The position numbers and the translations under genes are program-made. DNA of 64,000 nt from Chloroflexota bacterium (GTDB lineage: Bacteria; Chloroflexota; Limnocylindria; P2-11E), in the NCBI GenBank assembly GCA_005882255.1, contig VBEZ01000124.1:69953-133952 (forward strand), written 5' to 3'. The notes beneath the pieces were generated by a model. It saw only the letters and a list, made by a program, of their open reading frames with translations, searched no databases and was not told the origin of the DNA. Below are positions 11,994 to 46,599 of the stretch, piece by piece (the stretch's first letter is position 1; each line of letters starts with the position of its first letter).

Positions 11994-12014
11994 GTCCCTC
12001 TGTACGCTCTCGGG

Positions 12015-14705
<2,691 letters not shown>

Positions 14706-14738
14706 CGGCCCCGAGCGTATCGCTGGTAACGATGTGGT

Positions 14739-15035: not shown

Positions 15036-15107
15036 CGTGACCTCCCTGCGGACGTGGAGAGGATACGTCTCACACCGGGCGCCCGAGCGACGTCCTAATC
15101 TCGGGCG

Positions 15108-15992: not shown

Positions 15993-16005
15993 CAGGAGGG
16001 CCGCC

Positions 16006-16638: not shown

Positions 16639-16643
16639 GGGGG

Positions 16644-17009
16644 ATGCCAGTGGCACAGCTCACCGAAACAGGACGTAAGCACATCGCGTCGAAGAACTTC
16701 GCGTACATCGACAAAGCAGGTGGCGAGCACCTACCCATCCACGACGAGGAACACGTCCGCAACGCGATCGCGCGCTTCAACCAGACCGCGTTCGAGAGCG
16801 TCGCGGCCAAGGAGAAGGCGCGGCGCAAGGTGCTCGCGGCGGCGAAGCGCGATGGGATCGATGTCGCGAAGGACGATGCGATCGCGAGGCGCGCCGGACC
16901 GCTGAAGCGCGTGCGGACCAAGCGCGGGATGCGCGGTGGTAAGAAGGTGGTCAGCTCGAAGAGGTCGACATCCGCCCGCAAGAAGACGGCGGTCCGCCGC
17001 AAGAGATAA
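16644..17009 (+). CDS. Hypothetical protein with a conserved N-terminal domain and an Arg/Lys-rich C-terminal tail
   Basis: Motif LPIHDEEHVRNAIARFNQTAFES followed by the basic tail KRVRTKRGMRGGKKVVSSKRSTSARKKTAVRRKR. Confidence 0.5.
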   Translation: MPVAQLTETGRKHIASKNFAYIDKAGGEHLPIHDEEHVRNAIARFNQTAFESVAAKEKARRKVLAAAKRDGIDVAKDDAIARRAGPLKRVRTKRGMRGGKKVVSSKRSTSARKKTAVRRKR

Positions 17010-17048
17010 CGGAGCGTGCTTCGGTGACGCGCGCGATGATGTCGCGCG

Positions 17049-18485: not shown

Positions 18486-18504
18486 CTTAACCGGCGCGCG
18501 CGGG

Positions 18505-18522
18505 CACGGATACGGATCCGTG
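18505..18522. terminator. Palindromic hairpin between convergent genes; possible bidirectional terminator
   Basis: CACGGAT-ACGG-ATCCGTG, a 7-bp stem, between the LMF stop and the hydrolase stop. Confidence 0.35.
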
Positions 18523-18523
18523 G

Positions 18524-19370
18524 TCAGGGCTTGACGAGCGACCTTTCGAGCCACGCGATCGTGTCGCCGATGACCGCGTCCGCCTCGGGCTCGTTGTGCA
18601 TCTCGTGACGCAGTCGCGGATACACGCGGCGCGTCACGTTCTCGCGTCGGGCGAGCGAAGCGCTGGACGAGACCGGCACGACCGGGTCGTCACCGCCGTG
18701 CAGCACGTAGGTCGGGATCGGGAGTGCGTCGGTCCGGGTCAAGCGCGACTGGACGCGCGCCTGCTCGCGGAAAAGCTCCATGCCGAGGCGCGTCGTCGTT
18801 CGGTGCACATTGAGTGGATCGGAGCGATACGCGAGCTCGATCTGCGGGTCGTGCGAGAGCCCACCGGGCGGCAGGCGGTTGGCGATCTCCAGACGCGGTA
18901 GAGCGCGGCCGAGCACAGCCGCGAGGGGCCGTCTCCAGCCCCCGGCCGACGCGATCGCCGGCGCCGATAGAACGAGAAGATCGGGATCCGGACGCCGCGG
19001 ATCCGCGAGCACATAGCCGAGCGCGATGAGCCCACCCATGGAGTGGCCGTAGAGAACGACCGGCTGGCCGCCGGCCTCGCTGCGGAGCGCGGTCAGCCGA
19101 TCTTCGACGTCGTCGTGATACCGCGACCAGCGGTCGACGTACGCGCGGGGACCTTCAGATGCGCCGAAGCCGCGCAGGTCGAACGCGTACGTCTCGATCC
19201 CGGCCGACGCAAGCCGCGAAGCGACGTGCCCATGGCGCCCGGCGTGCTCGGCGATCCCATGTATGAGAAGGAGATACGCGCGCGCGACGCCGGCCGCTGG
19301 CCATCGCAGCGTGCGCAGCTGGAGGCCGTCGCGCGTGCGAGCGGTCCCGAGGAGGACGCTAACGGCCGCG
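18524..19370 (-). CDS. Alpha/beta hydrolase (lysophospholipase/monoacylglycerol lipase-like); no canonical start codon found near the expected N-terminus
   Basis: HG oxyanion motif LLIHG, nucleophile elbow GHSMGG, and C-terminal Asp/His. In frame, the only start is 209 nt inside the upstream gene, so the true start is unresolved. Confidence 0.7.
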
Positions 19371-20303
19371 CTCGTACCAATCCAACACGCGCATCGCGCG
19401 CAGGGTGTTCCAGTGGCTGGGCCGGCCTTCGCGCTCGTCCAGGCCGAACTCGAGATCGCGCAGACGGGCGTCGACCATCTCGCTCCGGTGTGGGTTCTCG
19501 AGCGGCACTCGGCCGTCGACGTCGCGCTTGGAGCGGACCAGCTCGATGGCCTCCGCCACGCGCGCATCAGGCGTCACACCCGCTGCGCGCAGGTACTCGA
19601 GCCCGCGCAGCGCGTCGTAGTGCCAGCCGGTCGGGAACGAGAACAGCGTGAAGGCCGTATCGATCAGCTCGCCGTTCGACAGCCGGCGCAGCATCCGGCG
19701 TTCGAGCAGATATTCCTGCCCACGCTCACGCGCCGCGGTCACCTCGGCCGAGCCGCCGGTCGCGCGCTCGTGCTCCAGCAGGCCCTCGAGGACATTGATC
19801 GTCGTGTGGAACGATCCGCGCGTCGAGCCGTTCTCCTGCTCGCAGTTCCACCCGCCATCGGCCATCTGCTCGCCGAGCAGCCGCTCGACGATGCCCGTCA
19901 CGTCCTGGCCGAAGTACGCGCCGACCGTCACGACGCGTCCGTTGATGCACGGCTCGACCTCGCCCGCGAACACCGGCCTGCCGTTCCAAGGGGCTCGTGG
20001 GTTGTGCCATGTCGCGTTGTCGCGGACGAGGGCGACCGCGTTCCGCGCCTGCTCGCTCGAAGCGTCGACGCCCATGTCGCGGAGCATCACCAGGGCGAGC
20101 AGCGTGATCCACTCCGTATCCGGCGTGCCTCTGTCCCACAGCCCATCCTCACGCCGCAGCGCCAAGAGGCGCGCGCCCCAGCCCGCTGTGGCAACGCGGG
20201 CCCGCTCCGCGGCGACCGCTTCGGCCGACGCATCGGTCAGGTCGCGCAGCGCCTGCCAGCGGACCGCCGGGTCGGCCGCGAGGAGCCACTCGAGCGCCTT
20301 CAT
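19359..20303 (-). CDS. Alpha/alpha-toroid prenyltransferase/terpene-cyclase-repeat protein
   Basis: QW-type repeats (EQMADGGWNCE; REDGLWDRG). The minus ORF looks real; the overlapping plus ORF 19263..20456 is an Arg-rich shadow. Confidence 0.55.
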   Translation of the reverse strand: MKALEWLLAADPAVRWQALRDLTDASAEAVAAERARVATAGWGARLLALRREDGLWDRGTPDTEWITLLALVMLRDMGVDASSEQARNAVALVRDNATWHNPRAPWNGRPVFAGEVEPCINGRVVTVGAYFGQDVTGIVERLLGEQMADGGWNCEQENGSTRGSFHTTINVLEGLLEHERATGGSAEVTAARERGQEYLLERRMLRRLSNGELIDTAFTLFSFPTGWHYDALRGLEYLRAAGVTPDARVAEAIELVRSKRDVDGRVPLENPHRSEMVDARLRDLEFGLDEREGRPSHWNTLRAMRVLDWYERGR

Positions 20304-20409
20304 GGGGCAGGTCCCCTTCCGTTGGTTCGGCGCACGCTAAAGGATGACGAGGCGCAACATCGTCGCCGTGCTGCGGGTGCAAGCACCCGCACACGACTCC
20401 TCGTTCCTG

Positions 20410-20760
20410 TGGAGATGGGGGAGGGTCGAACTCCCCGTCCAAGGCCGTTGAAGTGAGCGCTTCTACGAGCGTGGTCGGCGGTTTTTTTTCTCGGGAAGCC
20501 CAGCGCGCACCGACGCGCTCTCGGCTCCCCCAGACCGGAAATCTTGAGTCCGCCTACCGGCCGATCGGCGGACCGCACCTTCGCTTACGTCGCCCTTCCC
20601 GGCCCGCGAAGGGGAGACCGGGAGGACGCTCACTGACTAGGCAGCGAGTGCGTAGGAATTTGTGCCAGTTATCTGGCTGCCGTTCGGATTAACGAGGAGG
20701 AACGGCGTTCCTCGGCTCGCGACGCTCACGTCGCCTGCCCTGTCGAAACCACGCATCCCC
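20410..20760 (-). ncRNA. ssrA: tmRNA (SsrA); no genomically encoded 3' CCA
   Basis: Minus-strand 5' GGGGATGCGTGGTTTCGACAGGG pairs with the 3' CATCTCC acceptor. T-arm GGGGAGTTCGACCCTCCCC. The tag ORF ends ...AAT TCC TAC GCA CTC GCT GCC TAG (NSYALAA*). The ends were placed by hand, +/-2 nt. Confidence 0.85.
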
Positions 20761-20794
20761 GTGTGGCCTTCTTCAGGCACCATCAATTCTAACC

Positions 20795-21550
20795 TTGCTA
20801 CGTGCGTATCTCTTCCTCGCGATGCTGGTCGTCACGGCGTGCTCGGGCCCCCCGCCCCGCGCCGCGACCGCCGCGCCCGCGTCCCCGACCGCGTCCACAC
20901 TGGCGAGCGTGGCGCTGAGTCCGACCGCGACGCCGACGCCGTCGCCGACCGCACTGGTCCGCTACGTCGCGATCGGCGCGTCCGACACGGTCGGCGTCGG
21001 CGCGACCGACCCCGCGACCGGATCGTGGCCCGCGCGCATCGCGCAGCTCTTGCCGCCGGGCAGCGCGTTCGTGAACGTCGGCGTGTCGGGATCGATCGCG
21101 CTGCAGGCGCGCACCGCGCAGCTGCCCGGCGCGCTCGCGCAGCGGCCGACCGTGGTGTCGATCTGGCTGGCGGTGAACGACATGAACGCGACCATCGAAC
21201 CTGCCTCATTCGCGAGCGACCTCGGCGCGATCGTCGACGCGCTCGTTTCAGGCACCGAGGCGAAGATCTTCGTCGGCAACGTCCCCGATCTCCGGCCCGT
21301 TCCGGCGTACAAGGACGCCGACAAGGCGGCGCTGTTCAAGCTCATCGGCGCATACAACGCGGCGATCGCGGCCATCACCACGAAATATCCGGGCCGGGTC
21401 TTCGCGGTCGATCTCTTCACCGGCAGCGCCGAGCTGGTGAGCACGATCACCGTTTCCGGGGATGGCTTCCATCCCTCCGACGCGGGCTATCAGCTCATCG
21501 CGGACCGCTTCGCCGCCGCGATGCGCAGCGGAGGCGTACCGCTCCGCTAG
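20795..21550 (+). CDS. SGNH/GDSL hydrolase lipoprotein
   Basis: Lipobox VVTAC, Pro/Thr-rich linker, GDS-like block AIGASDTVGVGA, and a C-terminal DGFHP. Confidence 0.7.
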   Translation: MLRAYLFLAMLVVTACSGPPPRAATAAPASPTASTLASVALSPTATPTPSPTALVRYVAIGASDTVGVGATDPATGSWPARIAQLLPPGSAFVNVGVSGSIALQARTAQLPGALAQRPTVVSIWLAVNDMNATIEPASFASDLGAIVDALVSGTEAKIFVGNVPDLRPVPAYKDADKAALFKLIGAYNAAIAAITTKYPGRVFAVDLFTGSAELVSTITVSGDGFHPSDAGYQLIADRFAAAMRSGGVPLR

Positions 21551-22758
21551 GCCTCGGCGGCGACGACCTCGACGGCGCGCGGCGACGGCGCGCGCACGAG
21601 CTGGGCGAGCACCAGCGCGCCGGTCGTCATGAGCAGCGTCCCGAGCACGAGCACGACCTGGGGCTGGACCAGGTTCAGCAGCGCCGCCGCGACGAACGGC
21701 GCGGCGGTGCCGCGCACGCCCAGCAAGAACGCGTTCGCCGCCGCGTACTCGCCGATGCGCGCGCGCGGCGCCATGTGCACGATGTTCGTGAACGCCGTCA
21801 GCTCGCCGCTCGACACGCCGACGCCGATGAGCACGGCGACCGGCAGCAGCGCCCAGGTACCGGGCGCCACCAGGTAGCCGATGGGGACGAGGATCGTGAG
21901 CAGCGTCGCGATCAGCGTCTGCCGCAGCGTCGAGCCGCGATCGATGAGCCGGCCGAAGACCGGATACCCCACGATCTGCGTCGCGGACTGCACGATCGCG
22001 AGCGTAGCAACGAAGGCGTTCGACGCGTCGAAGTGGTCCACCAGCATGATCGGGAAGACCGCGAAGTTCATGAGGTTCCCGGTGCCGAAGATCGAGAACG
22101 CCAGCAGCAGCTTGCGGTAACGCCGGTCCGCCCAGATGCCGCGCGCGATGTCGAGCGCCGGGCGGCGCGCGGGCGGCGCGGCGGGCCCGTCATAGCGGAT
22201 CGCGAAGAACGCGAGAGCACAGGGAAGCCCGACGAGCGCCGCGGCGGCGAAAACCCACTGCGCCGGCACGACGCCGATGAAGCTGCCGGCAAGCGCCGCC
22301 GCACCGATCCCGGCGACCGAGGCCCCGACGCGCACGTTACCCATCGCGGAGGCGCGCTCGCGATCCGGATAGATCCCCTGCATCAGCGCCGTGTACGCGG
22401 CGATGTTCGAGACGGTGATGATCCAGAACGCGACGCTGGTGAGCGCGAGCATGAACGGCGTCGCGGCCAGGAGAACCGCGATCAGGAACACCAGGCGCGA
22501 CAGGCTGGCCGCGCCCGCGACGACACGCACGAGCGGTAGATGAGCGAGCAGGTACGCCGAGACCGGCGAGAGCAGGTTCCCGATGAACGGTGCCGCGACC
22601 ACGATCGCGACATCGGTGGTCGACCCGCCCATCCGTCTGACCACCACCGGCATGAACGCGATGAGGACCGAGACGAACGCGCCGGCGCCGAGGGCGCTGA
22701 AGAGATCGATCCGGAAATTGCGACGGACGCGTGAGGGTAGCCAGTTCGGGTCGGTCAC
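21547..22758 (-). CDS. MFS transporter
   Basis: Twelve TMS; typical MFS loop 2-3. Confidence 0.75.
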   Translation of the reverse strand: MTDPNWLPSRVRRNFRIDLFSALGAGAFVSVLIAFMPVVVRRMGGSTTDVAIVVAAPFIGNLLSPVSAYLLAHLPLVRVVAGAASLSRLVFLIAVLLAATPFMLALTSVAFWIITVSNIAAYTALMQGIYPDRERASAMGNVRVGASVAGIGAAALAGSFIGVVPAQWVFAAAALVGLPCALAFFAIRYDGPAAPPARRPALDIARGIWADRRYRKLLLAFSIFGTGNLMNFAVFPIMLVDHFDASNAFVATLAIVQSATQIVGYPVFGRLIDRGSTLRQTLIATLLTILVPIGYLVAPGTWALLPVAVLIGVGVSSGELTAFTNIVHMAPRARIGEYAAANAFLLGVRGTAAPFVAAALLNLVQPQVVLVLGTLLMTTGALVLAQLVRAPSPRAVEVVAAEA

Positions 22759-22807
22759 GGTACGGAAGCTAACGGCCGCTGCTGCGCTCTGTCACCGCCC
22801 CACGGGA

Positions 22808-23707
22808 CTAGGGGCCACGTTCGGGACGAGGTCGATAGCCGCCGCCCGGACGCGGTCCGTAACCGCGTCGCGGACCGTAGCCCCCGCCGCCCGGGCCGGT
22901 CGGCCTCGGCCGGAAGCCACTCCCGCCCGGCCCGCTCTCGCGGAACGGGCCGCGGGCGCCCGGCGCCGTCGAGCTGATCACCACGCGGCGGTTCGGCTCC
23001 ATGCCGACGGACTCGGTCTTCAGACCCTGCTGTCCTTGCACCGACAGGTGCACGATGCGCCGCTCATAGGCGAGCATCGGCTCGAGCGTGACGGCCTGCC
23101 CGCTCGCGCGCACCCGCGATCCAACGCGCTGCGCGATCTCGCGGAGCTGGTCCTCCCGGCGACGTCGATAGCCTTCGATGTCGATCGGGACGTGAACGGA
23201 GCGGCCGACTCGCTTCGACGTGATCGCGCTCACGATCTGCTGCAGCGCGACGAGGTTCTCGCCGCCGCGCCCGATGAGCGCGCCGAGATCGGTGCCCAGC
23301 ACGTCGACGCCCTCCAGCCCCGGGCGATCCTCGAGCGTCACCTCGGCCTCGACGCCCATCGCGCCCAGCAGTTCGCGCAGCACGGTCGCGCCCAGCGCGA
23401 GCTCCTCCGCGAATGCGGGTGATGCTTCATCGCTGTCTTCCTCGCGCAGGCCCCGCGCCGAGTCGGCGTGCCGCGGGACCTCGGCCTCGTCGATCACGGC
23501 ATCGGGCTCCGCCGGGCGCTCGTCCTCTTGGAACGACAAGAGGACGCGCGCGTCCTCGCCACCCATACCCAAGACGTTCGCGGGCTTGCCCTTCTCCAGG
23601 ATCTCGATGTCGACCTCGGTGCGCTTGCGACCGAGTGACCGCAGCCCGCGCTCGATCGCTTCTTCGACCGTACGACCAGTGAACTCCTCCCCACGCAGTG
23701 GGCTCAT
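22808..23707 (-). CDS. jag: Jag/KhpB RNA-binding protein (Jag_N, KH and R3H domains) with a Gly/Arg/Pro-rich tail
   Basis: The real start is MSPLRGEEFTGRTVEEAIERGL. The 645-aa ORF-track extension upstream is a shadow of yidC. ATGA overlap with the yidC stop. Confidence 0.85.
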   Translation of the reverse strand: MSPLRGEEFTGRTVEEAIERGLRSLGRKRTEVDIEILEKGKPANVLGMGGEDARVLLSFQEDERPAEPDAVIDEAEVPRHADSARGLREEDSDEASPAFAEELALGATVLRELLGAMGVEAEVTLEDRPGLEGVDVLGTDLGALIGRGGENLVALQQIVSAITSKRVGRSVHVPIDIEGYRRRREDQLREIAQRVGSRVRASGQAVTLEPMLAYERRIVHLSVQGQQGLKTESVGMEPNRRVVISSTAPGARGPFRESGPGGSGFRPRPTGPGGGGYGPRRGYGPRPGGGYRPRPERGP

Positions 23708-24675
23708 CGCTTCCCCCTCCTCCGTCCGCGGCGGCGACCGCCATTCGAGGCGCCGGACGCCGTCGGTGCCGGCTCGCGGTCGTCCGCGTCTTCCTTGTCT
23801 TTGTCCTTCATATCCTTCCGCGCCTCGGCGATCGCGGCCTGCTCGCGGCGATGCAGCTCGCGGTCCGCGGGCGTCGGGATCCCACGCAGGAATGGCAGGT
23901 ACTTCGGCAGCTGTCCCCAGCCGCTCACGAAGTACTGCTGCACGATCTGGAACATCGTCGTGGTGATCCAGTAGAGCGTCAGGCCGGCGGGGAACCGCGC
24001 GCCGATGACCACGGTGATGAGCGGGAAGGTGTACGCCATCGACTGGGTCATGCGCTGCGCCGTGTCCCCGCTCTGGACCTGTTTGACCGGCATCGCCATC
24101 ACCGAGGCGATCAGCTGCACCGCGCCGGCCAGCACCGGCAGGATGAAGAATGGATCGGGGTGCTGCAGGCCCTCGGTGATCCACGGCAGCCAGTGCGCGG
24201 TCGTCTCGAGCGACCCGTCGGGCGGGATCGGATTGGAGATGAACGCGTAACGGAAGCTTTCGACCATGTCGTGCGTCAGGCCAGGACACAGATTGCCCGG
24301 GGGAGGGCCGAGCCCGCAACCGAGCTGCAGCAACGAGTTGTAGAGCGCGATAAGAAGTGGCATCTGCAGGACCAATGGCAAGCATCCGGCCGCCGGGTTC
24401 ACGCCACGCTCGCTGTAGAGCTTCATCTGCTCCTGGCTGAAGCGCTGGCGATCTTTGCCGTACTTCTTCTTGAGCTCCTCCATCGCCGGCGCGACCTCTT
24501 GCATCGCCCGCTGCGAACGGATCTGCGTAACGTAGAGCGGATAGAGCGCGAGCCGGATGGTGATCGTGACCAGCACGATCGCGAGGCCGAAGTCGTGGAT
24601 GATCGAATACGCGAAGAGGGTCACGTTCATGACCGGATGGACCAGAAGCGTGTTCCAGAGCGTCAGGATGTCCAT
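23704..24675 (-). CDS. yidC: Membrane protein insertase YidC (short Gram-positive type)
   Basis: YidC core motifs LALYPLYVTQIRSQRAMQEVAPAMEELKKKYGKDRQRFSQEQMKLY...GCLPLVLQMP. Confidence 0.9.
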   Translation of the reverse strand: MDILTLWNTLLVHPVMNVTLFAYSIIHDFGLAIVLVTITIRLALYPLYVTQIRSQRAMQEVAPAMEELKKKYGKDRQRFSQEQMKLYSERGVNPAAGCLPLVLQMPLLIALYNSLLQLGCGLGPPPGNLCPGLTHDMVESFRYAFISNPIPPDGSLETTAHWLPWITEGLQHPDPFFILPVLAGAVQLIASVMAMPVKQVQSGDTAQRMTQSMAYTFPLITVVIGARFPAGLTLYWITTTMFQIVQQYFVSGWGQLPKYLPFLRGIPTPADRELHRREQAAIAEARKDMKDKDKEDADDREPAPTASGASNGGRRRGRRRGKR

Positions 24676-24890
24676 CAGTGCTCCGGCACCGGGTCATAGC
24701 CCCCGTGGCTGAACGGATTACACGAGACCACTCGACGCGTGGCAAGCCAACCGCCCCGCAGAACGCCGTGCTTCTCGATCGCCTCCATCGCGTACTCGGA
24801 ACACGTGGGTGTGTAGCGGCAGGCGGGCGGTAGGAACGGGCTGACGCGGGTCTTGTAGAAGCGCAGCGCGGCCAGCACCACGGTCTTCAT
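24675..24890 (-). CDS. yidD: Membrane protein insertion efficiency factor YidD
   Basis: [38 protein letters not shown]... The ORF-track N-terminal extension is rejected. Confidence 0.85.
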
Positions 24891-25228
24891 CGGGATGACT
24901 GGCGAGTGCCGCCGATGGCCGCCTCGGCCGCGGCCCGCAGTGCCGAAAAATCGGCGGCGATGGCATCTCGGCGCACCGTCACGACGATGTCCAGCGCGGG
25001 CGTGGGCTCGATGGCGGCGCACGCCTGGCGGAAAGCCTCGCGCACGCGACGCCGCGCGCGATTGCGGATCGTCGAGATGCCGACCGTGCGCGGCGCCGAC
25101 ACCGCGAGGCGCATCACGCTCAGGTCGTTGGGTCGAATTCGGGCGGTGAAAGCGACATCGCGCACGCCGCGCCCGATCTTTCGCACGGCCGCGATATCAG
25201 TGGATCGCCGCAAACGCGCGGCGTTCAT
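24887..25228 (-). CDS. rnpA: RNase P protein component RnpA
   Basis: RnpA fold motifs ([33 protein letters not shown]). Confidence 0.85.
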
Positions 25229-25242
25229 GCCTGCGAGGTCGT

Positions 25243-25380
25243 TCAGGCGACGGTCAGTCGCTTCCGTCCACGCGCGCGACGTTGTGCCAACACCTTGCGG
25301 CCGCCCGTCGTCTTCATCCGCGCGCGAAAACCATGCACGCGCGCGCGGCGACGCGTCTTCGGCTGATACGTGCGCTTCAC
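25243..25380 (-). CDS. rpmH: 50S ribosomal protein L34
   Basis: Manual translation gives (V)[46 protein letters not shown] start. Missed by the ORF track because it is under 60 aa. Confidence 0.85.
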
Positions 25381-25586
25381 GAACTGTCCCTTCTCCCCGA
25401 AAAAAATGGACGATGAATGAGCAGTGGATCGTCTATCTGTGCGAGAAAGTCTATCAGTGCGACTGTGCTACTGTTCCGTGGCTTCCAGCGGGCGGATCTT
25501 CTTCGTCTTCGCGTCGGTGTGGCGGCATCTCGCGTGATCGTGTTGTGGGGAGCGTCGTTGTGGTCGAGCGCAGAGAAGGGGAGCCG

Positions 25587-26966
25587 TTGAACCTCAAGCA
25601 GCTCTGGCACGCGGCCCTCGGCGAGCTGCAGCTCGGACTCACTAAAGCCAACTACGACACCTGGTTCAAAGACACCGCGATCGTCTCCGAAGAGGACGAT
25701 GTCTATTGCGTCGGTGTTCCGAACGCGTTCGCACGCGAGTGGCTCGAGAACAAGTACCGACAGCAGGTGCGAGACGCGCTGCGGCACCTCGTGGGCCGCA
25801 CCGTGGACGTCCGTTTCGTGACGCTGATGGCCGCGTCGGTGCGCTCCGATCGTCCAGTCGCGGCAGCCGGCAGCGCCAGCGGTGGATCGACCGCCGTGTC
25901 GTCCATGGCGCCAGCGCAGGACCGCCGCGAGGCGACCGCGGCGGCGCTGCTCAACGCCCGTTACACGTTCTCGACGTTCGTCGTCGGTTCCAACAACCGT
26001 TTGGCGCATGCGGCGGCGCTCTCCGTCGCCGAACGCCCGGGCCACAGCTACAACCCGCTCTTCATCTACGGCGGATCCGGTCTTGGAAAGACGCATCTGA
26101 TGCACGCGATCGGACACGCCGTGATCTCCCGACACCCGAAGAAGCGCGTTGCGTACGCGACGAGCGAGAAGTTCACGAACGAGTTCATCAACTCGATCCG
26201 CGGCCAGAAGAGCGAGGAGTTCCGCGAGCGGTATCGCCGCATCGACGTACTCCTGATCGACGACATCCAGTTCCTCACGGGCAAAGAGGGCACACAGGAA
26301 GAGTTCTTCCACACCTTCAATGCCATCCACGAGGAGGGGAAGCAGATCGTCCTTTCGAGCGACCGCCCGCCGAAGGCGATCGAGCGGCTCGAGGATCGGC
26401 TGCGGTCTCGTTTTGAGTGGGGCCTCATCGCCGACATCTCGACGCCCGATCTCGAGACCCGCATCGCGATCCTCCGTGCGAAGGCGGAGGCGCAGTCGGT
26501 CGCGGTCCCGCCGCCGGTCATCGACTTCCTCGCGCAGCGGATCGTGTCGAATATCCGTGAGCTCGAGGGCGCGCTCACGCGGATCGTCGCATTCGCGACC
26601 CTCAGTGCGGTCCCCGTCACGACCCAGCTCGCCCAGGAGATGCTCCAGAACATCCTGTACAACCCGCGCCAGAAGACGCTGTCGCCCGACCGCATCGTCG
26701 AGACTGTCGCGCGCTACTACGGTGTTCCGTCCGAGCAGCTGCGGGGCAAGGCCCGCGATAAGCAGGTCGTCCTGCCGCGCCAGATCGCGATGTACCTCAT
26801 GCGCGAGGAGACCGAGGCACCGCTGATGCGGATCGGAGAGGCCCTGGGGGGCCGCGACCACTCGACGGTCCTCCACGGGTGCGAAAAGATCGAGCGCGAG
26901 ATGGCCGAGAACGACGACTTCCGACGGGATGTTGGCGCGCTCCGGGAGCTGCTGTACTCGGACTGA
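25587..26966 (+). CDS. dnaA: Chromosomal replication initiator DnaA
   Basis: N-terminus LNLKQLWHAALGELQ, AAA+ Walker A GGSGLGKTHL, Walker B LLIDDIQF, sensors, and a domain IV HTH. TTG at 25587 behind a GAAGGGGAG RBS. The ORF-track start at 24906 is rejected because it would read through rnpA/rpmH on the other strand. Confidence 0.9.
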   Translation: MNLKQLWHAALGELQLGLTKANYDTWFKDTAIVSEEDDVYCVGVPNAFAREWLENKYRQQVRDALRHLVGRTVDVRFVTLMAASVRSDRPVAAAGSASGGSTAVSSMAPAQDRREATAAALLNARYTFSTFVVGSNNRLAHAAALSVAERPGHSYNPLFIYGGSGLGKTHLMHAIGHAVISRHPKKRVAYATSEKFTNEFINSIRGQKSEEFRERYRRIDVLLIDDIQFLTGKEGTQEEFFHTFNAIHEEGKQIVLSSDRPPKAIERLEDRLRSRFEWGLIADISTPDLETRIAILRAKAEAQSVAVPPPVIDFLAQRIVSNIRELEGALTRIVAFATLSAVPVTTQLAQEMLQNILYNPRQKTLSPDRIVETVARYYGVPSEQLRGKARDKQVVLPRQIAMYLMREETEAPLMRIGEALGGRDHSTVLHGCEKIEREMAENDDFRRDVGALRELLYSD

Positions 26967-27020
26967 GCGGTGTGACGCAAAACCCGTGGAATTCCGCCCG
27001 GTTTCAGCGCGGCATCCAGG

Positions 27021-27069
27021 TGTGGATAAGGCCGCACAATGTGTGGATAAGCGCACCCATTTGTGGACA
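27021..27069 (+). promoter_or_regulatory. oriC core: three same-orientation DnaA boxes at about 21-bp phasing in the dnaA-dnaN spacer
   Basis: TGTGGATAA at 27021-27029 and again at 27042-27050, each the exact reverse complement of TTATCCACA. TGTGGACAT at 27062-27070 is the actinobacterial-type box with one mismatch. Confidence 0.8.
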
Positions 27070-27322
27070 TGTGCACCAAGACCGTGTTTCATAGAGCAAC
27101 GTCCGTTGGGGAGTGTGACATCGCCTTCTCGGGCTGTGTTCGCGGTCCCCAGTCCATCCCGCCCGAGTCCACAGCTCAGCCCGATCAAGCACACACTCAC
27201 GATCGGCACGCCCGGCTGAGCGCGCCACGACAACAGCATCTCGGAACGTTCATAGTCCACACCACTACTGCTGGTACCGGCGTCTTTAGACATCTTTTCG
27301 GGGAAGGTACGGAGGGTCCGCG

Positions 27323-29449
27323 TTGAAGGTCACTTGTCTACAAGAGAACCTCGCGCGCGGGCTCCAGATCGCCGGACGGGCCGTCTCGACGCGCGGCAGC
27401 CTGCCGATCCTCGGGAATGTGCTGCTTCGGACCGAGGGTGGGCGCTTGAAGCTCACCGCCACGAATCTCGAAGTCGGGATCAACTGCTGGGTTCCCGCGA
27501 AGGTCGATGACGAGGGCGCGATCACCGTGCCGGCGAAGCTCTTCACTGATTTTGTCAACTCCCTGCCGCCCGGCCCGACGGAGCTCTCGCTCAATGTCCG
27601 CACGAAGACGGTGCATCTGCGGCGCGATCCGTACGAAGCGAATTTCAAGGGCATGGACGCGGAGGAGTTCCCGATCATCCCCGTCGCGCCGGAAAAGCCG
27701 ACGACTCGCGTCAGCAAGTCCACGCTTCGTCGCATGATCGGCGAGGTCGCGTTCGTGGCCACGACCGACGACAGCCGACCCGTGCTCACCGGTGTGCTTA
27801 CCACGCTCGAGGGCGACAGGATCACGATGGCTGCGGCCGATCCCTACCGCCTCTCCGTGCGAAACGCGAAGCTGATCGACAAGGTAGAAGGAAAGCTCGA
27901 GGTCATCATCCCAGCGCGCAGCCTCCAGGAAGTGCAGCGGATCCTCGACGACAGCGATGATCCAGTGGACATCTTCGTGACCCCGAACGGTAGCCAGGTG
28001 ATCTTCCACACACCGGAGGTGGATCTCGTCTCACGTGTCATCGAAGGCCAGTTCCCGAATTACCGACAGGTCATCCCACAGGGCAAGCCCGCCACGCGGC
28101 TCGTGGCCCAGCGAGAGGAATTGCTGCAGGCCACCCGGCTCGCCTCGCTCTTCGCGCGCGACTCGGCGAACATGCTCCGCTTCCAGGTGAACCCCGCGGA
28201 CCATCCGCCACTCGTCATCAGCGCGAATGCCGCGGAGGTCGGCGACCAGACGGCGAAGGTGGAGGCGACGGTGGAGGGACAGAACACCACCATCGCGTTC
28301 AACTCGCGGTTCATCTACGACGCGCTCGGCAGCCTCACCGCGTCCGAGGTCGCGCTCGAGGACTTCCGCAGCTACGCACAAGTCGAGCTGCCGCTCGCGC
28401 GTGGCGCCACCACTTTCGTGGGACCGAACGGGGCCGGCAAGACGAACCTTCTCGAGGCGATCCACCTCATCGCGCGCGGCGACTCACCGCGCGCCCGCGA
28501 CGACACGGAGATGGTCCGCTGGGGCGCGACCACGGCGCGCGTCCGGACCGAGGTCGATCGTGCCGAGGACCACCGCCGCATCGAAACGCTCCTCTTCGCG
28601 CCCCCCGAGGGCGAACGCCGGCGGCCGCGCCGCTACCTGCTCGACGGTGCCGCCAAGCGGTCGGAAGATGCGGCCGGCGAGCTCGTCGTCGTTGCGTTCT
28701 TTCCGGAGGACGTCGAGCTGCTCGGGGCGGCGCCAAGCGCGCGCCGCCGATTCATGGACGCCATGCTCGGACAGATCGATCGCGCGCATCGTCGTGAGAT
28801 GCGTGAGCTTCAGCACGTGCTCGAGCAGCGCAACGCGCTCCTACGCGTCGCACGCGAGGAGCTCGAGCTGCCCGAGGCAGAGATGGCGTTCTGGGACGGA
28901 GAGCTCATTCGACTCTCGGCCGCGATCTCGCTCCGTCGGTCACGGCTCGCCACCGAGCTGTCGGCGCCGTTCGTGAGCGCGACCGAGCGCTTCACCGGCG
29001 CCGAGGGTCTGGCCCTCGCGTACGCGGGACAGGTGGAAGGCGCCACGCTGGACGAGCGCGCGAGCGCGTACGCGCGCGTCCTGCGCGAGAAACGCGAGCG
29101 CGAACGCTGGCAGGGAACGTCACTCGTCGGGCCCCAGCGCGACGATCTCGTTGTCACCTCGGCCGGTCGCATGTTGCCGGCCTTCGCGTCGCGCGGTGAG
29201 CATCGCAGTGCGGTGCTTTCGCTGAAGATCGCGGAGGCGGCGTGGCTCGCATCCCGCGTCGGAGAGCAACCGGTCTTCCTGCTGGACGACGTGCTCTCGG
29301 AGCTCGACCCCGCCCGGCGCGAGGCGCTCGCGAACGCCATCCCGCAGGACGCGCAGATCCTGCTCACCGCCGCGATCGTCACGGCCCTTCCCGACGTGCT
29401 GCGCGAGCGCGCCGCGGTGGTGCCGGTGCGGCGGGGCGAGGTCGGATGA
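27323..29449 (+). CDS. dnaN/recF: DnaN (beta sliding clamp) fused in frame to RecF as a single 708-aa ORF
   Basis: Residues 1 to about 336 are a DnaN clamp through FNSRFIYDAL, but the final MPxRL strand is missing. From about 28333 the sequence is RecF (SLTASEVALEDFRSY, Walker A GPNGAGKTNLLEAI, QRNALLR, GPQRDDL, LSLKIAEAAW, LLDDVLSELD). There is no stop and no in-frame start between them. Confidence 0.8.
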   Translation: MKVTCLQENLARGLQIAGRAVSTRGSLPILGNVLLRTEGGRLKLTATNLEVGINCWVPAKVDDEGAITVPAKLFTDFVNSLPPGPTELSLNVRTKTVHLRRDPYEANFKGMDAEEFPIIPVAPEKPTTRVSKSTLRRMIGEVAFVATTDDSRPVLTGVLTTLEGDRITMAAADPYRLSVRNAKLIDKVEGKLEVIIPARSLQEVQRILDDSDDPVDIFVTPNGSQVIFHTPEVDLVSRVIEGQFPNYRQVIPQGKPATRLVAQREELLQATRLASLFARDSANMLRFQVNPADHPPLVISANAAEVGDQTAKVEATVEGQNTTIAFNSRFIYDALGSLTASEVALEDFRSYAQVELPLARGATTFVGPNGAGKTNLLEAIHLIARGDSPRARDDTEMVRWGATTARVRTEVDRAEDHRRIETLLFAPPEGERRRPRRYLLDGAAKRSEDAAGELVVVAFFPEDVELLGAAPSARRRFMDAMLGQIDRAHRREMRELQHVLEQRNALLRVAREELELPEAEMAFWDGELIRLSAAISLRRSRLATELSAPFVSATERFTGAEGLALAYAGQVEGATLDERASAYARVLREKRERERWQGTSLVGPQRDDLVVTSAGRMLPAFASRGEHRSAVLSLKIAEAAWLASRVGEQPVFLLDDVLSELDPARREALANAIPQDAQILLTAAIVTALPDVLRERAAVVPVRRGEVG

Positions 29450-29739
29450 GACCCATCGCGCGCGCGATCGCGAGCGCGCTGCGCACGCTCGGGATCGACC
29501 AGGATGTGGCGCGCGCGGACGCCGTTCGCGCGTGGCCCGCGGCCGCGACGACGGTGCTTGGCGCCGACGCCGTGACGACGCGTGCGGTGCGCACTGACGG
29601 CGATACCCTCGTCGTCCTGGTGCCGACCGCGCAGTGGGCCGGAGAGATCAGACTCCGCGAGCGCGAGCTGCTGGTGGCCCTCGCGGACCGTGCGCCCGCG
29701 AGCCGCATCGCGCGTCTTCGGTGTGTGCCCTCGCCGTGA
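29446..29739 (+). CDS. dciA: DUF721/DciA-family protein (replicative helicase operator in dnaC-less bacteria)
   Basis: A 97-aa protein just downstream of recF with an ATGA overlap. Its conserved position and size match Rv0004-like DciA. Confidence 0.65.
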   Translation: MRPIARAIASALRTLGIDQDVARADAVRAWPAAATTVLGADAVTTRAVRTDGDTLVVLVPTAQWAGEIRLRERELLVALADRAPASRIARLRCVPSP

Positions 29740-29767
29740 GGCGGCGCGTCTGGGACACTCGCGAGCG

Positions 29768-31837
29768 ATGCCGCAACTGAGCTTCGTCACGACGGTCGGC
29801 AGCACGGCTGACGTGCGGGCAAGCCGCGCGGATGTGATCGTCGTGAGCGAGCCTGAGACCGGCGCGACCCTTCGCACCAAGGGCCGGCTCTACCTCTTGT
29901 TCGAGGCATCTCCGCCCGGACCCGCCGAAAAGATCGCCCGCGAGGTCGCGGAGCTGACGCGCCAGGAGTACTACTACGACCTTTCCGCGGGGATCGAGGT
30001 CTCGCTGCGACGTGCGCTGCGACAGGCGAACCGGCGCGCGACACAGCGGCTTCGGGAGAACCGCGGGTCGACAACGCTCCAGTGTGCGTGCGCCGTGATC
30101 GTGAACAACGAGCTGTACACCTCACACGTCGGCGGCGCGCAGGTGTTCCTCGTCCGCCGCGCGCGGCTCTTTCTCCCCGGCGACGAGCCCGGCGAGCTCG
30201 CCGATTTCGTCCATCGGACCACCAAGCGCGAGGCCACGTCGCTCGGTACGGACGCCGATGTGCTCCCGAAGGTGTGGCGCCAGTCGATCGAGGCGGGCGA
30301 CACGGTCATCCTCGCGAGCGCCGCGCTTATCGACGGGCTCGGTGCCGAGGCGCTGAAGAGCGCCGCGGTCACGCTGCATCCGCGGTCGGCGGCGGAGCAC
30401 ATCCACAATCGCGCGGTCGCGGACGGCGTGGTTGGCAGCGACGCGGTGATCTTCATCGAGGTCGCCCAGTCCGGCAGCGCGGCCGTTCGCATCGCACCGG
30501 AGCCGGCGCCGATCGTGCGGCCGGTCGAGGTCGCCGTGGCGGACGGCATTCGATCGCGGCTGGATGTGGTGAATCGCGTCGTGCAGAGCGTGGCGCGGCT
30601 GCTGCGCGGCGCGACGACGCCGGTGACCGCGGCGGCGACGAAGAGCGTGGCGGTCGGTCTGGAGCTCATGCCGCGGCGCGGCGCCGCCCTGCCGCGTCAC
30701 GCCGACACCGCGCGCTCGCGGTCCCGCCGACAGCGGCGCGCCATGACCACGCTCGCCGTGCTGCTGCTCGTCGCCGCGACCGGCGTTGGCGCCCTCGCCT
30801 ATCGCGACTACGAGTCGACCCGAGCGGGTCGCGAATACCAGCTCGCCGTCGCGAACGCGGAGGACTTCATCGCGTCGGCACACCGTTTGGCCGACCGCAA
30901 GCCGCCGGACCCCGACGGCGCGCGCGAGCGGATGGCCAGCGCGACCGCGAAGCTGGACGAAGCGAGCCGCTCGACCTTCGTTGTCCCGGAGAAGATCGCC
31001 GCGCTACGTGCGGACATCGCGGCCCTCACCGACCGCCTCGACGGCGTGATCCTCGATCTCGCGCGGTTCGGGACCGGAACGAAGCTCGCGCAGGTCATCG
31101 GGAACGTGAACGGTCTGTATGTCACCGACCCCGGCGCCGGACGGCTCTGGCGTGTCTTCGGCGACCCGGTCCAACAGGGGCCGGTACTCGAGCGCGGTGT
31201 CAAAGGCGTTGGCTCGCCGGTCCAGCTCGCGCTGGAGGACTTCGCGGTCTACTCGCTCGACGACGCGGGCAAGCTGTGGCGGGCCGAGGGCGATCAGGTC
31301 GTCGACGTGACGCCCGCCGAACGAGACAAGTGGAAGACGCCCGCCGCCCTCGCGGTGTTCGCGAACAACCTGTACGTCCTCGACAGCGAGACCGGCCAGC
31401 TGTGGAAGCACGAGTCGAACGACGGCGTTCGCTTCGGCCCGGCCATCGGGTATCTCGCGACGCCGCTCGCGCCGAACGCGGCCCGAGCGCTCGCGGTCGA
31501 CGGCGATGTCTGGATCGTGACCTCCGCCGGGGACCTGCAGCGCTTCCGCCGCAACCCGCTCGTCACGACCGCCTCGCGCATCGACTTCGTGCCGCGCTGG
31601 GAGGGGACGGCGCCGCGCGCGAACGCCGTCCAGGCCATCGACACGCAGGGATCGATCTACGTGCTCGACTCGGGCGGCAAGCTGATCGTCCAGCTCACGC
31701 GCGATGGCCGCGAGCTGGCGCGGTTCGCGCTGCCGCCCGGTCTGCCGCCCGCGGCGAGCTTCTACGTTTCCGAATCGCTGAGGGTCGCCTACACGCTTCA
31801 CGGGACGAAGATCGTCGCGACGAGCACCGTGCGTTGA
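29768..31837 (+). CDS. Bitopic membrane protein: a cytoplasmic degenerate PP2C-like (pseudophosphatase) domain, one TM helix, and an extracytoplasmic beta-propeller-like repeat domain
   Basis: PP2C-like blocks occur in order, but the metal-binding Asp residues are replaced (EASPPG for DGMGG; SHVGGAQ for GDSR; ASAALID for CSDGL). TM helix TLAVLLLVAATGVGALAY. The repeats are YVTDPGAGRLWRV, YSLDDAGKLWRA, YVLDSETGQLWKH and YVLDSGGKLIVQ. Confidence 0.65.
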   Translation: MPQLSFVTTVGSTADVRASRADVIVVSEPETGATLRTKGRLYLLFEASPPGPAEKIAREVAELTRQEYYYDLSAGIEVSLRRALRQANRRATQRLRENRGSTTLQCACAVIVNNELYTSHVGGAQVFLVRRARLFLPGDEPGELADFVHRTTKREATSLGTDADVLPKVWRQSIEAGDTVILASAALIDGLGAEALKSAAVTLHPRSAAEHIHNRAVADGVVGSDAVIFIEVAQSGSAAVRIAPEPAPIVRPVEVAVADGIRSRLDVVNRVVQSVARLLRGATTPVTAAATKSVAVGLELMPRRGAALPRHADTARSRSRRQRRAMTTLAVLLLVAATGVGALAYRDYESTRAGREYQLAVANAEDFIASAHRLADRKPPDPDGARERMASATAKLDEASRSTFVVPEKIAALRADIAALTDRLDGVILDLARFGTGTKLAQVIGNVNGLYVTDPGAGRLWRVFGDPVQQGPVLERGVKGVGSPVQLALEDFAVYSLDDAGKLWRAEGDQVVDVTPAERDKWKTPAALAVFANNLYVLDSETGQLWKHESNDGVRFGPAIGYLATPLAPNAARALAVDGDVWIVTSAGDLQRFRRNPLVTTASRIDFVPRWEGTAPRANAVQAIDTQGSIYVLDSGGKLIVQLTRDGRELARFALPPGLPPAASFYVSESLRVAYTLHGTKIVATSTVR

Positions 31838-35142: not shown

Positions 35143-38100
35143 CCGAGACGGAGCTGACCGTGCGCGACGACCGCCGCACGAACCTCGCTACGGCGGGCCT
35201 CATCACCCTCGGTGTCGCGCTGCGCTTGCTGACGCTGCGCTCGCCCGGTTTCCCCAGCGACGTCGGCACGTTCCAGGCGTGGGCCGAGCACCTGGTCCAG
35301 GTCGGGCCCGGCGGCTTCTATGCGCCGGATTACTTCAGCGACTACCCGCCGGCCTATCTCTATGTCCTCTGGCTGTTCGGCGCCGTCTTCGATGGTGAGC
35401 TGCTCCGCCTCGCGGTGAAGGCCGCGAGCATCCCGGCGGACGTCGCGATCGCCGTCGGAGCGGCCGCGCTGGCGTGGCGTCACGCCGGTCGCGGGAGCGC
35501 GATCCTCGCCGCCGGCCTGTGGTCGCTCTCGCCGGCGGCGATCTTCGCCGGCCCGTACTGGGGGCAGATCGACGCGGTCGGGTCGCTGCCCCTCTTCGCG
35601 GCGCTCGTTGCCGCGGGACGCGGCCGCTGGGCGACGGCCGGTGCGCTCGCCGCGCTCGCCGCGATGGTGAAGCCGCAGTTCGGCATCGGCGCGGTCGTGA
35701 TCGCCGGCGCGGTGCTCATCGAGCTGATCCGGTACGGACGCTGGCAGCCGCTCGGGCGCGTCGCGCTCGCCGGCGTCGTCACCGCGCTCGCGCTGGGTGC
35801 GCCGTTCAAAGCGGGGCCCGCGGAGCTCGTCGACCTCGTGAAGAAAGCATCCGAGACCTATCCCTACACATCGCTGTTCGCGTTCAACGTGTGGTCGATC
35901 GCCGCCGATTTCTGGCAGCCCGACGCCGCGTACGTCGGCATCGGGACGCTGCTGCTGGTCGCGGGGCTGCTCGGCTCGTGCGTCCCGCTGTGGTGGCGCC
36001 GCGACACCGCGACGTTCCTCGCGGCGGGCACGCTCGCGGCCTGCGCCTTCTACTTCCTGCCCACGCGCGCCCACGAGCGATACCTGTTCCCTGCGCTCGT
36101 CCTGCTGCTCCCGCTCGCCGCGGTGCGCGCGCGCCTCCTCTGGCCGTACGTCGCGTTCTCCCTCGGCTTCGCGGTGACGCTGTACTTCGCGTTCACGCGC
36201 TACGCGCAGAACGACCTCAAGTCGCCGCCATGGCTCGAGTCGACGCTCTTCTCGCGCACCGGTCAGATCGTGCTCGCGCTCTTCATGCTCGGCACGGCCG
36301 GGCTCGTCGCGTGGCGGCTCCTCCGTGGCGAGGCGCGCCTCGAGCCGTCGCTCGATGTCTCCCTTCCGGCGGCGCCGGCGCCCGACGCCGAGCCGCGCGC
36401 TGCCTGGCGCCTGCCGGCGGCGCTCGCGACGGGACATGCGCCGACGCGCCGCGACCTTTCGATCGCACTGCTCGTCGCGATCGCCGTCCTCGTGACGCGC
36501 GGTTACCGGCTCGATCACCCGCGCGACATGTACTTCGACGAGGTCTATCACGCGCGCACCGCGTTCGAGCTCCTCGCGCAGCGCGATCCGTACGAGTGGA
36601 CGCACCCGCATCTCGCGAAAGAGATCATGGCGCTCGGCATCCTCGCGTTCGGCGACGATCGCGTCGTCGGTCACGAGCCTGCGCCTGGCGCGAACGCCGT
36701 GGCCCTCGCCGTCGGTCCCGACGGCACCCGCGCCTACGCCACGTCCGACGGCGTCATCACCCTTCGCGCGCGCGACAGCGCCGTGAGTCGCGACGTGGTG
36801 AAGGGCGCGCTCGGTGTGCGTGCCCTGGTCCTCGACGGCTCGCGCATCCTCTGGGCGACGGACACCGAACTCTTCCAGAGCCCGGTGACGGAGCCGCCGA
36901 GCAACTTCGTGACTCCGCGCGCGAGACTTCCGGTCGGCGGCCCGGTCACGGCGCTGTTCGTATCCGGCGGCCGCGTCGTCGTCGCCACCGCGTCGGGCGT
37001 CGCCGTCTACACCGCCATCGACGCGGCGCCGGTCGTCTCGCAGCTGGGCGCCGCGAGCGTGACGTCCAACCCGGACGGCACCGAGCTCTATGTCCTCGAC
37101 GCGCACGGCGATGTCCACGTCCTCGATCCCGCGACCGGCAACGAGACGCGACTGCTTCCGGGTGGCGGCCCGGGTCGCGCGATCGCATACGCGCAGGCGC
37201 CGAACCGACTCTTCGTCGCGCGCGCGGACACGCCGGCTCTCGACGTATACGAGCTGCCGAACGGCCAGCGCGACTCAGTGCCGCTCGCGAACGCGCGCAC
37301 CGGCACCTTCGCGTCGGGCGCGACCGCCCTGGTGGTCGTGCCGCGCACGCAGTTCCTCTACGCCCTCGCGGAGGGCCGCGTCGTGGTCGTCGAAGTGCAC
37401 GGCGCCTCGCCGTTCGCCGCGATACCGGTGTCGGGCTCACTCCTCGCGTTCGACAACGACGACGACAAGCTGCTCGTCGCGGGCCCCGGCGGTGCCGACC
37501 TCATCGAGACCGGACGCCACGCTCTTGCCTGGCGCCTGCCGGGGGTGTTGCTCGGCGCGATCCTCGCGTTCTTCCTCGTGCTACTCGCGCGCCGGCTGTT
37601 CGCTTCGCCGGCCGTGGCGTGGCTCGTCGGCGCGGCGGTGCTGCTGTGCGGATCGATGTTCGCGCAGGCGCGCATCGGCATGAACGACATCTACGTCGCG
37701 ACGTTCATCGTCGCCGGGTGGTACTTCATCGTCGCGGCGCACCGGCCCCGGCGTTCCGCCGCCGCCGACCTCGTGATCGCGGGAGCGCTGCTCGGGCTCG
37801 GCCTCGCCTCGAAGTGGGCCGCGGCCTACACCCTGGGTGGCGTCTTCGTGCTATCAGTCGGCGTCACCGCGCTCGCGTACGAACGCGGGCGGCCCGGGAC
37901 CGGCGGACCGCTCGATCTTCTCGCCGGCCGGGGACGTGGCGCCGCGCTGCTCTTCGTCTCGTTCGCGGTGATCCCGCTCCTCATCTACCTCGGTAGCTAC
38001 GCGAGCTGGTTCGGCGGCAAGACGGCGCCGTACGGCTGGAATCTGTGGGAGCTCACGCAGCAGATGTACTGGTACCACAGCTCCCTGACCGCCCCGCACT

Positions 38101-39637: not shown

Positions 39638-39642
39638 GCGCG

Positions 39643-40926: not shown

Positions 40927-40929
40927 GGC

Positions 40930-42054: not shown

Positions 42055-42059
42055 GACGG

Positions 42060-44670: not shown

Positions 44671-44731
44671 GCCGTCACCCCCGTGGTGCGACCGAGGATA
44701 TTCGGTCCACGCCCTCTTCCTGCGGTAGGGT

Positions 44732-46597: not shown

Positions 46598-46599
46598 CC

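What the first reader, a model, noticed from the sequence alone, without database searches (positions are those of the whole stretch)
27323..29449. DnaN and RecF read as one 708-aa in-frame ORF
The DnaN clamp sequence runs to FNSRFIYDALGSL, about residue 338, and lacks the terminal MPxRL strand. Without any stop or candidate start codon it then continues as SLTASEVALEDFRSY-...-GPNGAGKTNLLEAI. That is a textbook RecF N-terminus, with the Walker A about 30 residues downstream. No alternative frame supplies a DnaN C-terminus. This is either a genuine clamp-RecF fusion protein, which would be remarkable for clamp-loader and RecFOR biology, or a local indel. The indel reading is supported by two other anomalies in the window: the gnd frameshift and the GT4 read-through.
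Basis: seen in the sequence. Interest (0 to 1): 0.6.

Follow-up and report, generated by a model that had tools for sequence, protein, structure and literature searches.

The report
dnaN-recF fusion is an assembly collapse
The single 708-residue clamp-RecF reading frame exists in this sequence, but only because 120 bases between two identical 11-base repeats are missing; every other assembly of the same and related bacteria has that stretch, so it is almost certainly a local assembly error and not a new fusion protein.

Summary
The ORF 27323-29449 (+), 708 aa, is real in the sequence and reads DnaN(1-346) directly into RecF. It is not an evolved fusion. Four contigs of the same species (99.2-100% identical) and 76 of 76 related species have a normal dnaN stop, a 3-nt spacer and a GTG recF start. 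In the same-species contigs an exact 11-nt direct repeat (TCGCGCTCGAG) occurs 120 nt apart. The window equals that sequence minus exactly one repeat unit (40 codons).

The loss removes the last 29 clamp residues (final strands of domain III and the VVMPLR binding cleft), the stop codon, and the recF start. No fused junction was found in 241 million metagenome records or 5.8 billion proteins.

A same-strain scaffold (100% identical over the next 1.8 kb) keeps the 120 nt but has its own assembly break, with junk sequence and Ns, 22 nt upstream of the repeat. The 21 nt between that break and the repeat carry two alleles foreign to the species. Both halves show purifying selection and no decay.

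Most likely this is a local misassembly at a strain-variable spot. A very recent real deletion is a minor alternative. Only reads can settle it. Interest is low.

The parts
27311..27316 (+). Shine-Dalgarno-like GGAGGG, 6 nt upstream of the TTG start of dnaN
   Evidence: Read directly from the sequence. The same start is used by relative P0003 (MKVTCLQENL...).
27323..28349 (+). dnaN-derived part of the ORF: clamp domains I and II complete, domain III cut after its second helix and the start of the next strand
   Evidence: PF00712 on aa 1-120, PF02767 on aa 130-246, PF02768 on aa 248-346 but only model positions 1-95 of 121. TIGR00663 model 1-340 of 367. 99.3-99.75% identical to same-species contigs, with no gaps.
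28329..28349 (+). 21-nt patch between the contig end of same-strain scaffold L111 and the repeat; it carries alleles C28336 and G28342
   Evidence: All four same-species contigs (L101, L107, L091, L111) have G and C at these two sites, while the 91%-identical relative L102 has the window's alleles. L111's left contig stops at the base equivalent to window 28328.
28350..28360 (+). The seam: the single retained copy of the 11-nt direct repeat TCGCGCTCGAG (encodes ..ALE in both genes)
   Evidence: Same-species contigs have two exact copies 120 nt apart, and the window has one. Alignments to every relative break here.
28361..29449 (+). recF-derived part, from D10 of RecF to the TGA stop; it lacks its own GTG start and the first residues (M/V-R-V-S-A-L)
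   Evidence: TIGR00611 at 275 bits against a cut-off of 172. 100.000% identical to L111 over window 28350-30145. The intact same-species RecF is 371 aa.
28421..28444 (+). RecF Walker A, GPNGAGKT
   Evidence: Located by direct sequence search.
29183..29209 (+). RecF signature-motif region, FASRGEHRS
   Evidence: Located by direct sequence search. Assigning it as the ABC-type signature motif rests on general knowledge of RecF.
29273..29308 (+). RecF Walker B region, VFLLDDVLSELD
   Evidence: Located by direct sequence search.
29446..29739 (+). Downstream 97-aa gene whose ATG overlaps the recF stop (ATGA); DciA/DUF721-type, the usual neighbour of recF
   Evidence: Translation. The identical gene in L111 carries PF05258 DciA.

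Best explanation
The 708-aa ORF is a local assembly artefact in a Candidatus Limnocylindria (Chloroflexota) soil metagenome-assembled genome. The organism has ordinary, separate genes: dnaN (375 aa), a TAG stop, a 3-nt spacer, and GTG-recF (371 aa). In this species the dnaN codons for V-A-L-E and the recF codons for L-A-L-E are spelled with the same 11 nt (TCGCGCTCGAG), 120 nt apart and in the same frame. In the window one repeat unit has dropped out. That removes 29 clamp residues, the stop, the spacer codon and 9 RecF codons, and it joins the genes in frame. Shown here: the deletion is exact, is flanked by the repeat, and is private to this sequence; the spot is an assembly trouble zone in an independent same-strain assembly. 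Inferred: the join was made during assembly, scaffolding or gap closure, or from a template-switch chimera in library preparation, where co-occurring strains differ. The exact software step is unknown.
For: (1) Same-species contigs L101, L091 and L107 (99.2-99.4% identical) carry the intact tail LGGPLAPGVIKIVGDADYLHVVMPLRIPA*, the spacer CGC, a GTG start, and the 11-nt repeat at 120-nt spacing. The window is that sequence minus exactly 120 nt.
(2) Same-strain scaffold L111 is 100.000% identical over window 28350-30145 and 99.75% identical with no gaps over 13482-28328, and it still contains the 120 nt. It has its own break there: its contig ends at window-equivalent 28328, followed by 33 nt of unrelated sequence and 10 Ns.
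(3) The 21 nt between that break and the repeat carry two alleles that differ from all four same-species contigs and match a 91%-identical relative.
(4) All 76 GTDB species representatives that carry both halves have a dnaN stop 27-30 codons past the seam.
(5) The fused junction gave 0 hits in JGI metagenome contigs, against 27 for the normal junction with the same left half. No fused protein was found in 5.8 billion proteins.
(6) Codon differences from same-species copies are 17-18 synonymous against 1-4 non-synonymous, so there is no decay.
(7) A random 50-200-nt deletion has at least 11 nt of microhomology with p of about 4e-5 to 2e-4, so the join was homology-guided.
(8) The window has a second private gap of 86 nt in GT4, whose right edge coincides with the end of an independent contig.
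(9) A clamp lacking only its last 5 residues is inactive for loading and Pol III replication (PMC3022782). The intact clamp aligns end to end with solved clamps.
Against: No reads are available, so the artefact is inferred and not observed. An 11-nt repeat is shorter than the k-mers of common de Bruijn assemblers, so I cannot name the algorithmic step that produced the join. Replication slippage between 11-nt repeats 120 nt apart is a well-known real mutational route. The rest of the window is clean where it can be checked: 0 indels against L117 over 17 kb, 0 against L111 over 14.8 kb, and 0 against L120 over 13.5 kb. The gnd frameshift is reproduced in an independent assembly, so this is not a generally sloppy sequence. 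The two foreign alleles are only two SNPs.
Confidence: 0.85

Rival explanations
1. A real, very recent slipped-strand (RecA-independent) deletion between the two 11-nt repeats in the sampled strain or a subpopulation. It would produce a DnaN(1-346)-RecF chimera whose clamp moiety is defective. It would persist only transiently, or be tolerated through a second dnaN copy or multiple chromosome copies.
For: The exact repeat-to-repeat loss is the classical slippage signature. Such repeats are common here, with 39 in 64 kb. The window is otherwise accurate, and the gnd frameshift is a genuine shared lesion. In-frame indels also occur between same-species contigs, for example 39 nt in yidC of L101.
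Against: dnaN is essential, and far smaller C-terminal truncations inactivate the clamp. The window has no second dnaN. A same-strain scaffold, identical over the adjoining 1.8 kb, has the intact allele. The junction was never seen elsewhere. There is no secondary decay. The adjacent assembly break and foreign alleles fit a mis-join better.
Confidence: 0.12
2. An evolved, functional clamp-RecF fusion protein that tethers RecF covalently to the sliding clamp.
For: The frame is open, and the RecF ATPase motifs are intact. A direct RecF-DnaN interaction has been proposed in E. coli (PMC10287930), so a fusion would make conceptual sense.
Against: The architecture is absent from all 76 related species, all four same-species contigs and all protein databases searched. 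The seam lies inside folded domain III and removes the binding cleft instead of adding a linker after a complete clamp. The cell would be left with no intact clamp gene at this locus.
Confidence: 0.01
3. An in-vitro polymerase template switch during library amplification, helped by a hairpin that brings the two repeats together, which was then assembled.
For: The homology-guided junction is compatible with template switching.
Against: The deleted segment with flanks folds no better than shuffled controls (DNA fold z = -0.28, with 71 of 200 shuffles at least as stable). Rare chimeric molecules should not outcompete the true allele unless the true path was already broken.
Confidence: 0.02

Closest known systems
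Canonical dnaA-dnaN-recF(-dciA/DUF721) origin-proximal gene cluster with separate, translationally coupled dnaN and recF
   Same: Same gene order and orientation. The flanks are also the same: rnpA, yidD, yidC and jag upstream on the opposite strand, and a DciA-type gene overlapping the recF stop. Both halves score as equivalog-level DnaN and RecF.
   Different: The window lacks the last 29 dnaN codons, the stop, the 3-nt spacer and the first 9 recF codons, all of which every relative has.
Deletions between short direct repeats (replication slippage in vivo, or collapse/mis-join of short repeats in assembly)
   Same: Exact loss of one repeat-to-repeat unit (120 nt) with one 11-nt copy retained. 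The microhomology is far beyond chance.
   Different: The process that made it cannot be identified from sequence alone. The adjacent independent assembly break and the foreign alleles point to assembly, not biology.
E. coli beta-C clamp mutant (C-terminal five residues deleted)
   Same: It loses the C-terminal residues that form the hydrophobic partner-binding cleft (PMC3022782, PMC2685083).
   Different: Here 29 residues are lost, including two structural strands of domain III, and they are replaced by a 362-residue RecF moiety. No functional data exist for this protein.

Membership tests
Beta sliding clamp DnaN (TIGR00663; PF00712 + PF02767 + PF02768) | Three complete clamp domains | tested here: not met
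   Domains I and II are complete. Domain III matches only model positions 1-95 of 121, and TIGR00663 only 1-340 of 367. The intact same-species protein aligns end to end with PDB clamps.
Beta sliding clamp DnaN (TIGR00663; PF00712 + PF02767 + PF02768) | Conserved C-terminal strand and cleft residues (...HVVMPLRIPA in this lineage) | tested here: not met
   Absent in all three frames at the locus and elsewhere in the window. Present in all relatives.
RecF (TIGR00611) | Whole-protein score above the curated cut-off | tested here: met
   274.9 bits against a cut-off of 172, covering model positions 3-338 of 339.
RecF (TIGR00611) | Walker A, signature motif and Walker B present | tested here: met
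   GPNGAGKT at aa 367-374, FASRGEHRS at aa 621-629, VFLLDDVLSELD at aa 651-662.
RecF (TIGR00611) | Own start codon and N-terminus (M/V-RVSALALEDF...) | tested here: not met
   The first in-frame start after the seam is GTG 28418, inside the strand just before Walker A. Relatives start at a GTG 3 nt after the dnaN stop.
Evolved multidomain fusion protein | The same fused architecture found in independent genomes | tested here: not met
   0 of 76 species representatives, 0 of 4 same-species contigs, 0 junction hits in JGI contigs against 27 control hits, and no fused protein in two protein searches.
Evolved multidomain fusion protein | The junction lies between intact domains | tested here: not met
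   The seam truncates clamp domain III by 29 residues.
Repeat-flanked deletion / assembly collapse | The sequence equals the intact allele minus one repeat unit, and the intact allele has the flanking direct repeat | tested here: met
   TCGCGCTCGAG occurs twice, 120 nt apart, in L101, L091 and L107. The window has one copy and lacks exactly 120 nt.
Repeat-flanked deletion / assembly collapse | Reads contradict the assembled junction | not testable with these tools
   No read data are available. The indirect evidence is a same-strain scaffold with the intact segment and an assembly break 22 nt upstream of the repeat.

The most novel reading that the evidence does not exclude
The deletion is real. 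A living Limnocylindria strain has just undergone slipped-strand loss of 120 bp and now makes a covalent DnaN(domains I-II plus partial III)-RecF chimera, surviving through another clamp gene or extra chromosome copies. That would be a natural experiment in tethering RecF to clamp domains.
Probability: 0.06. Interest if true: 0.45.

Novelty: not a real feature. Interest (0 to 1): 0.07.

Why it matters
A real covalent clamp-RecF protein would bear directly on the open question of how RecF is targeted to post-replication gaps, since a direct RecF-DnaN contact has been proposed (PMC10287930). The evidence says it is not real. The practical value is a caution: this genome record would yield a spurious 708-aa "DnaN/RecF" protein and would appear to lack both a complete clamp and a free-standing RecF. 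Fusion-based (Rosetta-stone) function inference, or completeness scoring that uses this record, would be misled. The case also shows that short in-frame repeats at strain-variable sites can create clean, frame-preserving mis-joins that pass ORF-level checks.

Tried and rejected
(1) Alternative frames or a relocated clamp tail: none at the locus or anywhere in the window.
(2) A second dnaN in the window: none.
(3) An internal RecF start: the only candidate is GTG 28418 just before Walker A, which is implausible.
(4) A hairpin-assisted polymerase jump: the fold is no better than shuffles, z = -0.28.
(5) 'The window is generally error-prone': rejected. There are 0 indels against same-species contigs over 2568-19673, 13482-28328 and 36060-49583. 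At the 39-nt (24190) and 1-nt (33237) differences from L101, the public contig is the odd one out, not the window. The gnd frameshift is shared with an independent assembly.
(6) Natural DnaN-RecF fusions elsewhere: the only long hits were frameshifted or read-through products on low-quality contigs (P0003, P0010, P0024, P0053). None shares this junction.
(7) The window's own contig could not be found by exact protein look-up. An exact look-up of a CoA-transferase neighbour also found nothing.
(8) I could not name the assembler step that would join on an 11-nt overlap. Ideas about scaffolder or gap-closer overlap merging rest on memory only and were not tested.

Full report
OBSERVATION. The window contains one open reading frame at 27323..29449 (+): 708 aa, TTG start, preceded by GGAGGG. 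Profile searches split it cleanly. DnaN covers aa 1-346 (TIGR00663 model positions 1-340 of 367; the C-terminal clamp domain PF02768 reaches only 95 of 121). RecF covers aa 342-683 (TIGR00611 positions 3-338 of 339). Both halves are far above the curated cut-offs. The seam is SEVALE|DFRSY (E346/D347). There is no stop and no in-frame start until GTG 28418. No other frame, and no other place in the window, encodes the missing clamp tail.

WHAT RELATIVES LOOK LIKE. Among 889 homologues, no protein covers both halves. The organism belongs to Candidatus Limnocylindria (Chloroflexota), known from soil metagenome-assembled genomes. In all 76 species-representative loci that contain both genes, dnaN continues 27-30 codons beyond the window's seam to a stop codon. 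Those loci also have 114-291 nt between the two points that are adjacent in the window. A scan of 241 million JGI metagenome records for the fused junction found nothing. The same dnaN-side pattern followed by the normal continuation found 27 contigs. A junction-centred search of 5.8 billion proteins found only clamp fragments ending ...ALELGGPLAPGV.KIVGD.DYLHVVMPLRIPA and RecF fragments starting M/VRVS.LALEDFRSY.

THE EXACT LESION. Three of the 27 contigs (L101, L091, L107) are 99.2-99.4% identical to the window, so they are the same species. All three read ...SLTASEVALELGGPLAPGVIKIVGDADYLHVVMPLRIPA-TAG-CGC-GTG-RVSALALEDFRSY.... They contain the 11-mer TCGCGCTCGAG twice, exactly 120 nt apart and in the same reading frame. 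The window has one copy (28350-28360) and lacks exactly the 120 nt between the copies. That is 40 codons: 29 clamp residues, the stop, one spacer codon and nine RecF codons. The intact proteins are 375 and 371 aa. Repeats of this length are common in this 68% G+C DNA, with 39 within 200 nt of each other in the window. A random 50-200-nt deletion would show at least 11 nt of microhomology only about 4e-5 to 2e-4 of the time, so the join was homology-guided.

REAL DELETION OR ARTEFACT? Several lines point to an artefact.

First, scaffold L111/L120 comes from another assembly (ENA ERZ28573657, CRIT18-1_SAMN08902839 scaffold_362, 41.6 kb) and is essentially the same strain. It is 100.000% identical to window 28350-30145, 99.75% identical with no gaps to 13482-28328, and 99.82% identical with no gaps to 36060-49583. 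It contains the 120-nt segment intact.

Second, that scaffold has its own assembly failure at the same place. Its contig ends at the base equivalent to window 28328, followed by 33 nt of unrelated sequence and ten Ns, and it resumes 14 nt before the first repeat copy.

Third, the 21 nt of the window between that break point and the repeat carry two alleles (C28336, G28342). These differ from all four same-species contigs and match a 91%-identical relative (L102). L111 also has a third polymorphism inside the first repeat copy. The site is therefore strain-variable, and the window looks like a mosaic there.

Fourth, the predicted product could not work as a clamp. The intact protein aligns end to end with solved clamps (B. 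subtilis 4tr6, E. coli 1mmi). The lost residues are the final strands of domain III and the C-terminal cleft residues. [quoted passage not shown] The window has no second dnaN.

Fifth, both halves differ from same-species copies almost only at synonymous sites (17-18 synonymous against 1-4 non-synonymous). If the lesion is real, it is extremely recent.

Sixth, the window has a second private gap. It lacks 86 nt of a GT4 glycosyltransferase tail at 59309/59310 relative to a 99.5%-identical contig (L110). That gap has about 1 nt of microhomology, and its right edge coincides exactly with the end of an independent contig, L109.

WHAT ARGUES THE OTHER WAY. I have no reads. An 11-nt overlap is shorter than normal assembly k-mers, so I cannot name the software step responsible. 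Slippage between such repeats is a genuine mutational route. The window is otherwise accurate wherever it can be checked. It is thus probably a real lesion and not evidence of poor sequence. A hairpin-promoted polymerase jump is not supported (z = -0.28).

VERDICT. The ORF is real in the sequence. As biology it is most likely (about 0.85) a local misassembly that collapsed 120 nt between two 11-nt repeats at a strain-variable site. A very recent real deletion giving a defective chimera is about 0.12. An evolved functional fusion is about 0.01. The underlying locus is the ordinary dnaA-dnaN-recF-dciA cluster. A true clamp-RecF fusion would have been interesting, given the proposed RecF-DnaN interaction (PMC10287930), but the evidence does not support one. 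Read mapping or PCR across the site would settle the question.

Noticed in passing
window 57553-60366 (-), breakpoint at 59309/59310: The GT4 read-through is a 938-aa open frame made of a GT4 glycosyltransferase plus an SBP_bac_5 lipoprotein. The binding protein has its own SD (AAGGGGGTGGA), GTG start and signal peptide. The window lacks 86 nt that encode the normal GT4 tail (RVRLGEAGARRAPEFDWSHVTAQLVGVYE) in the 99.5%-identical contig L110, and this shifts the frame into the next gene. The gap has about 1 nt of microhomology. Independent contig L109 ends exactly at the right breakpoint, and identity to L110 falls to 92% further upstream.
   Followed up: partly
window 43778-44670 (-), G-run at 44391-44394: The gnd-like 6-phosphogluconate dehydrogenase is frameshifted by one missing G (GACGGGGCAAC where D-G-G-N needs GACGGGGGCAAC). 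The same lesion is present in the independent same-strain scaffold L120, which differs from the window at 24 SNPs in 13.5 kb. It is therefore probably a genuine pseudogene or split gene and not a sequencing error.
   Followed up: partly
window 5410-8478 (+), about 5866-6309: gyrA carries an intein (PF14890 within the topoisomerase domain). The same architecture is called in same-species contigs L115-L117.
   Followed up: no
L111 1933-1975 (equivalent to just after window 28328): The public scaffold CRIT18-1_SAMN08902839 scaffold_362 has 33 nt of unrelated sequence plus 10 Ns inside dnaN. Its gene call gives a truncated 350-aa DnaN with no Pfam hit on record.
   Followed up: yes
window 24190-24228 and 33237, versus L101: JGI contig Ga0209056_10005709 (L101) lacks 39 nt in yidC and one G at window-equivalent 33237. 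Outgroups agree with the window at both sites, so these are variants or errors of the public contig and not of the window.
   Followed up: yes
window 2311-2682, versus L115 610-709: Another CRIT18-1 scaffold (L115) has a 100-N gap where the window has 370 nt of continuous coding sequence, apparently parB-like though I did not test that. Contigs L116 and L117 start at window 2682 and 2568. This is a second recurrent assembly break point in this population.
   Followed up: partly
P0053 (JGI contig of 5.7 kb; 43% identical relative): This is a 542-aa product with a complete DnaN including its tail (...HVVMPVRTTS), then a short linker and a RecF N-terminus. Its own C-terminus looks frameshifted, so it is probably a read-through on a low-quality contig, with a junction different from the window's.
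   Followed up: no
P0122 (ENA contig of 562 nt) and P0001 ('src' protein assembly): P0122 has 66 residues of RecF N-terminus identical to the window, followed by an unrelated membrane-protein sequence. P0001 is a 92%-identical DnaN lacking 13 residues between two ATRL motifs. Both look like chimeric or collapsed assemblies in this lineage's public data.
   Followed up: no
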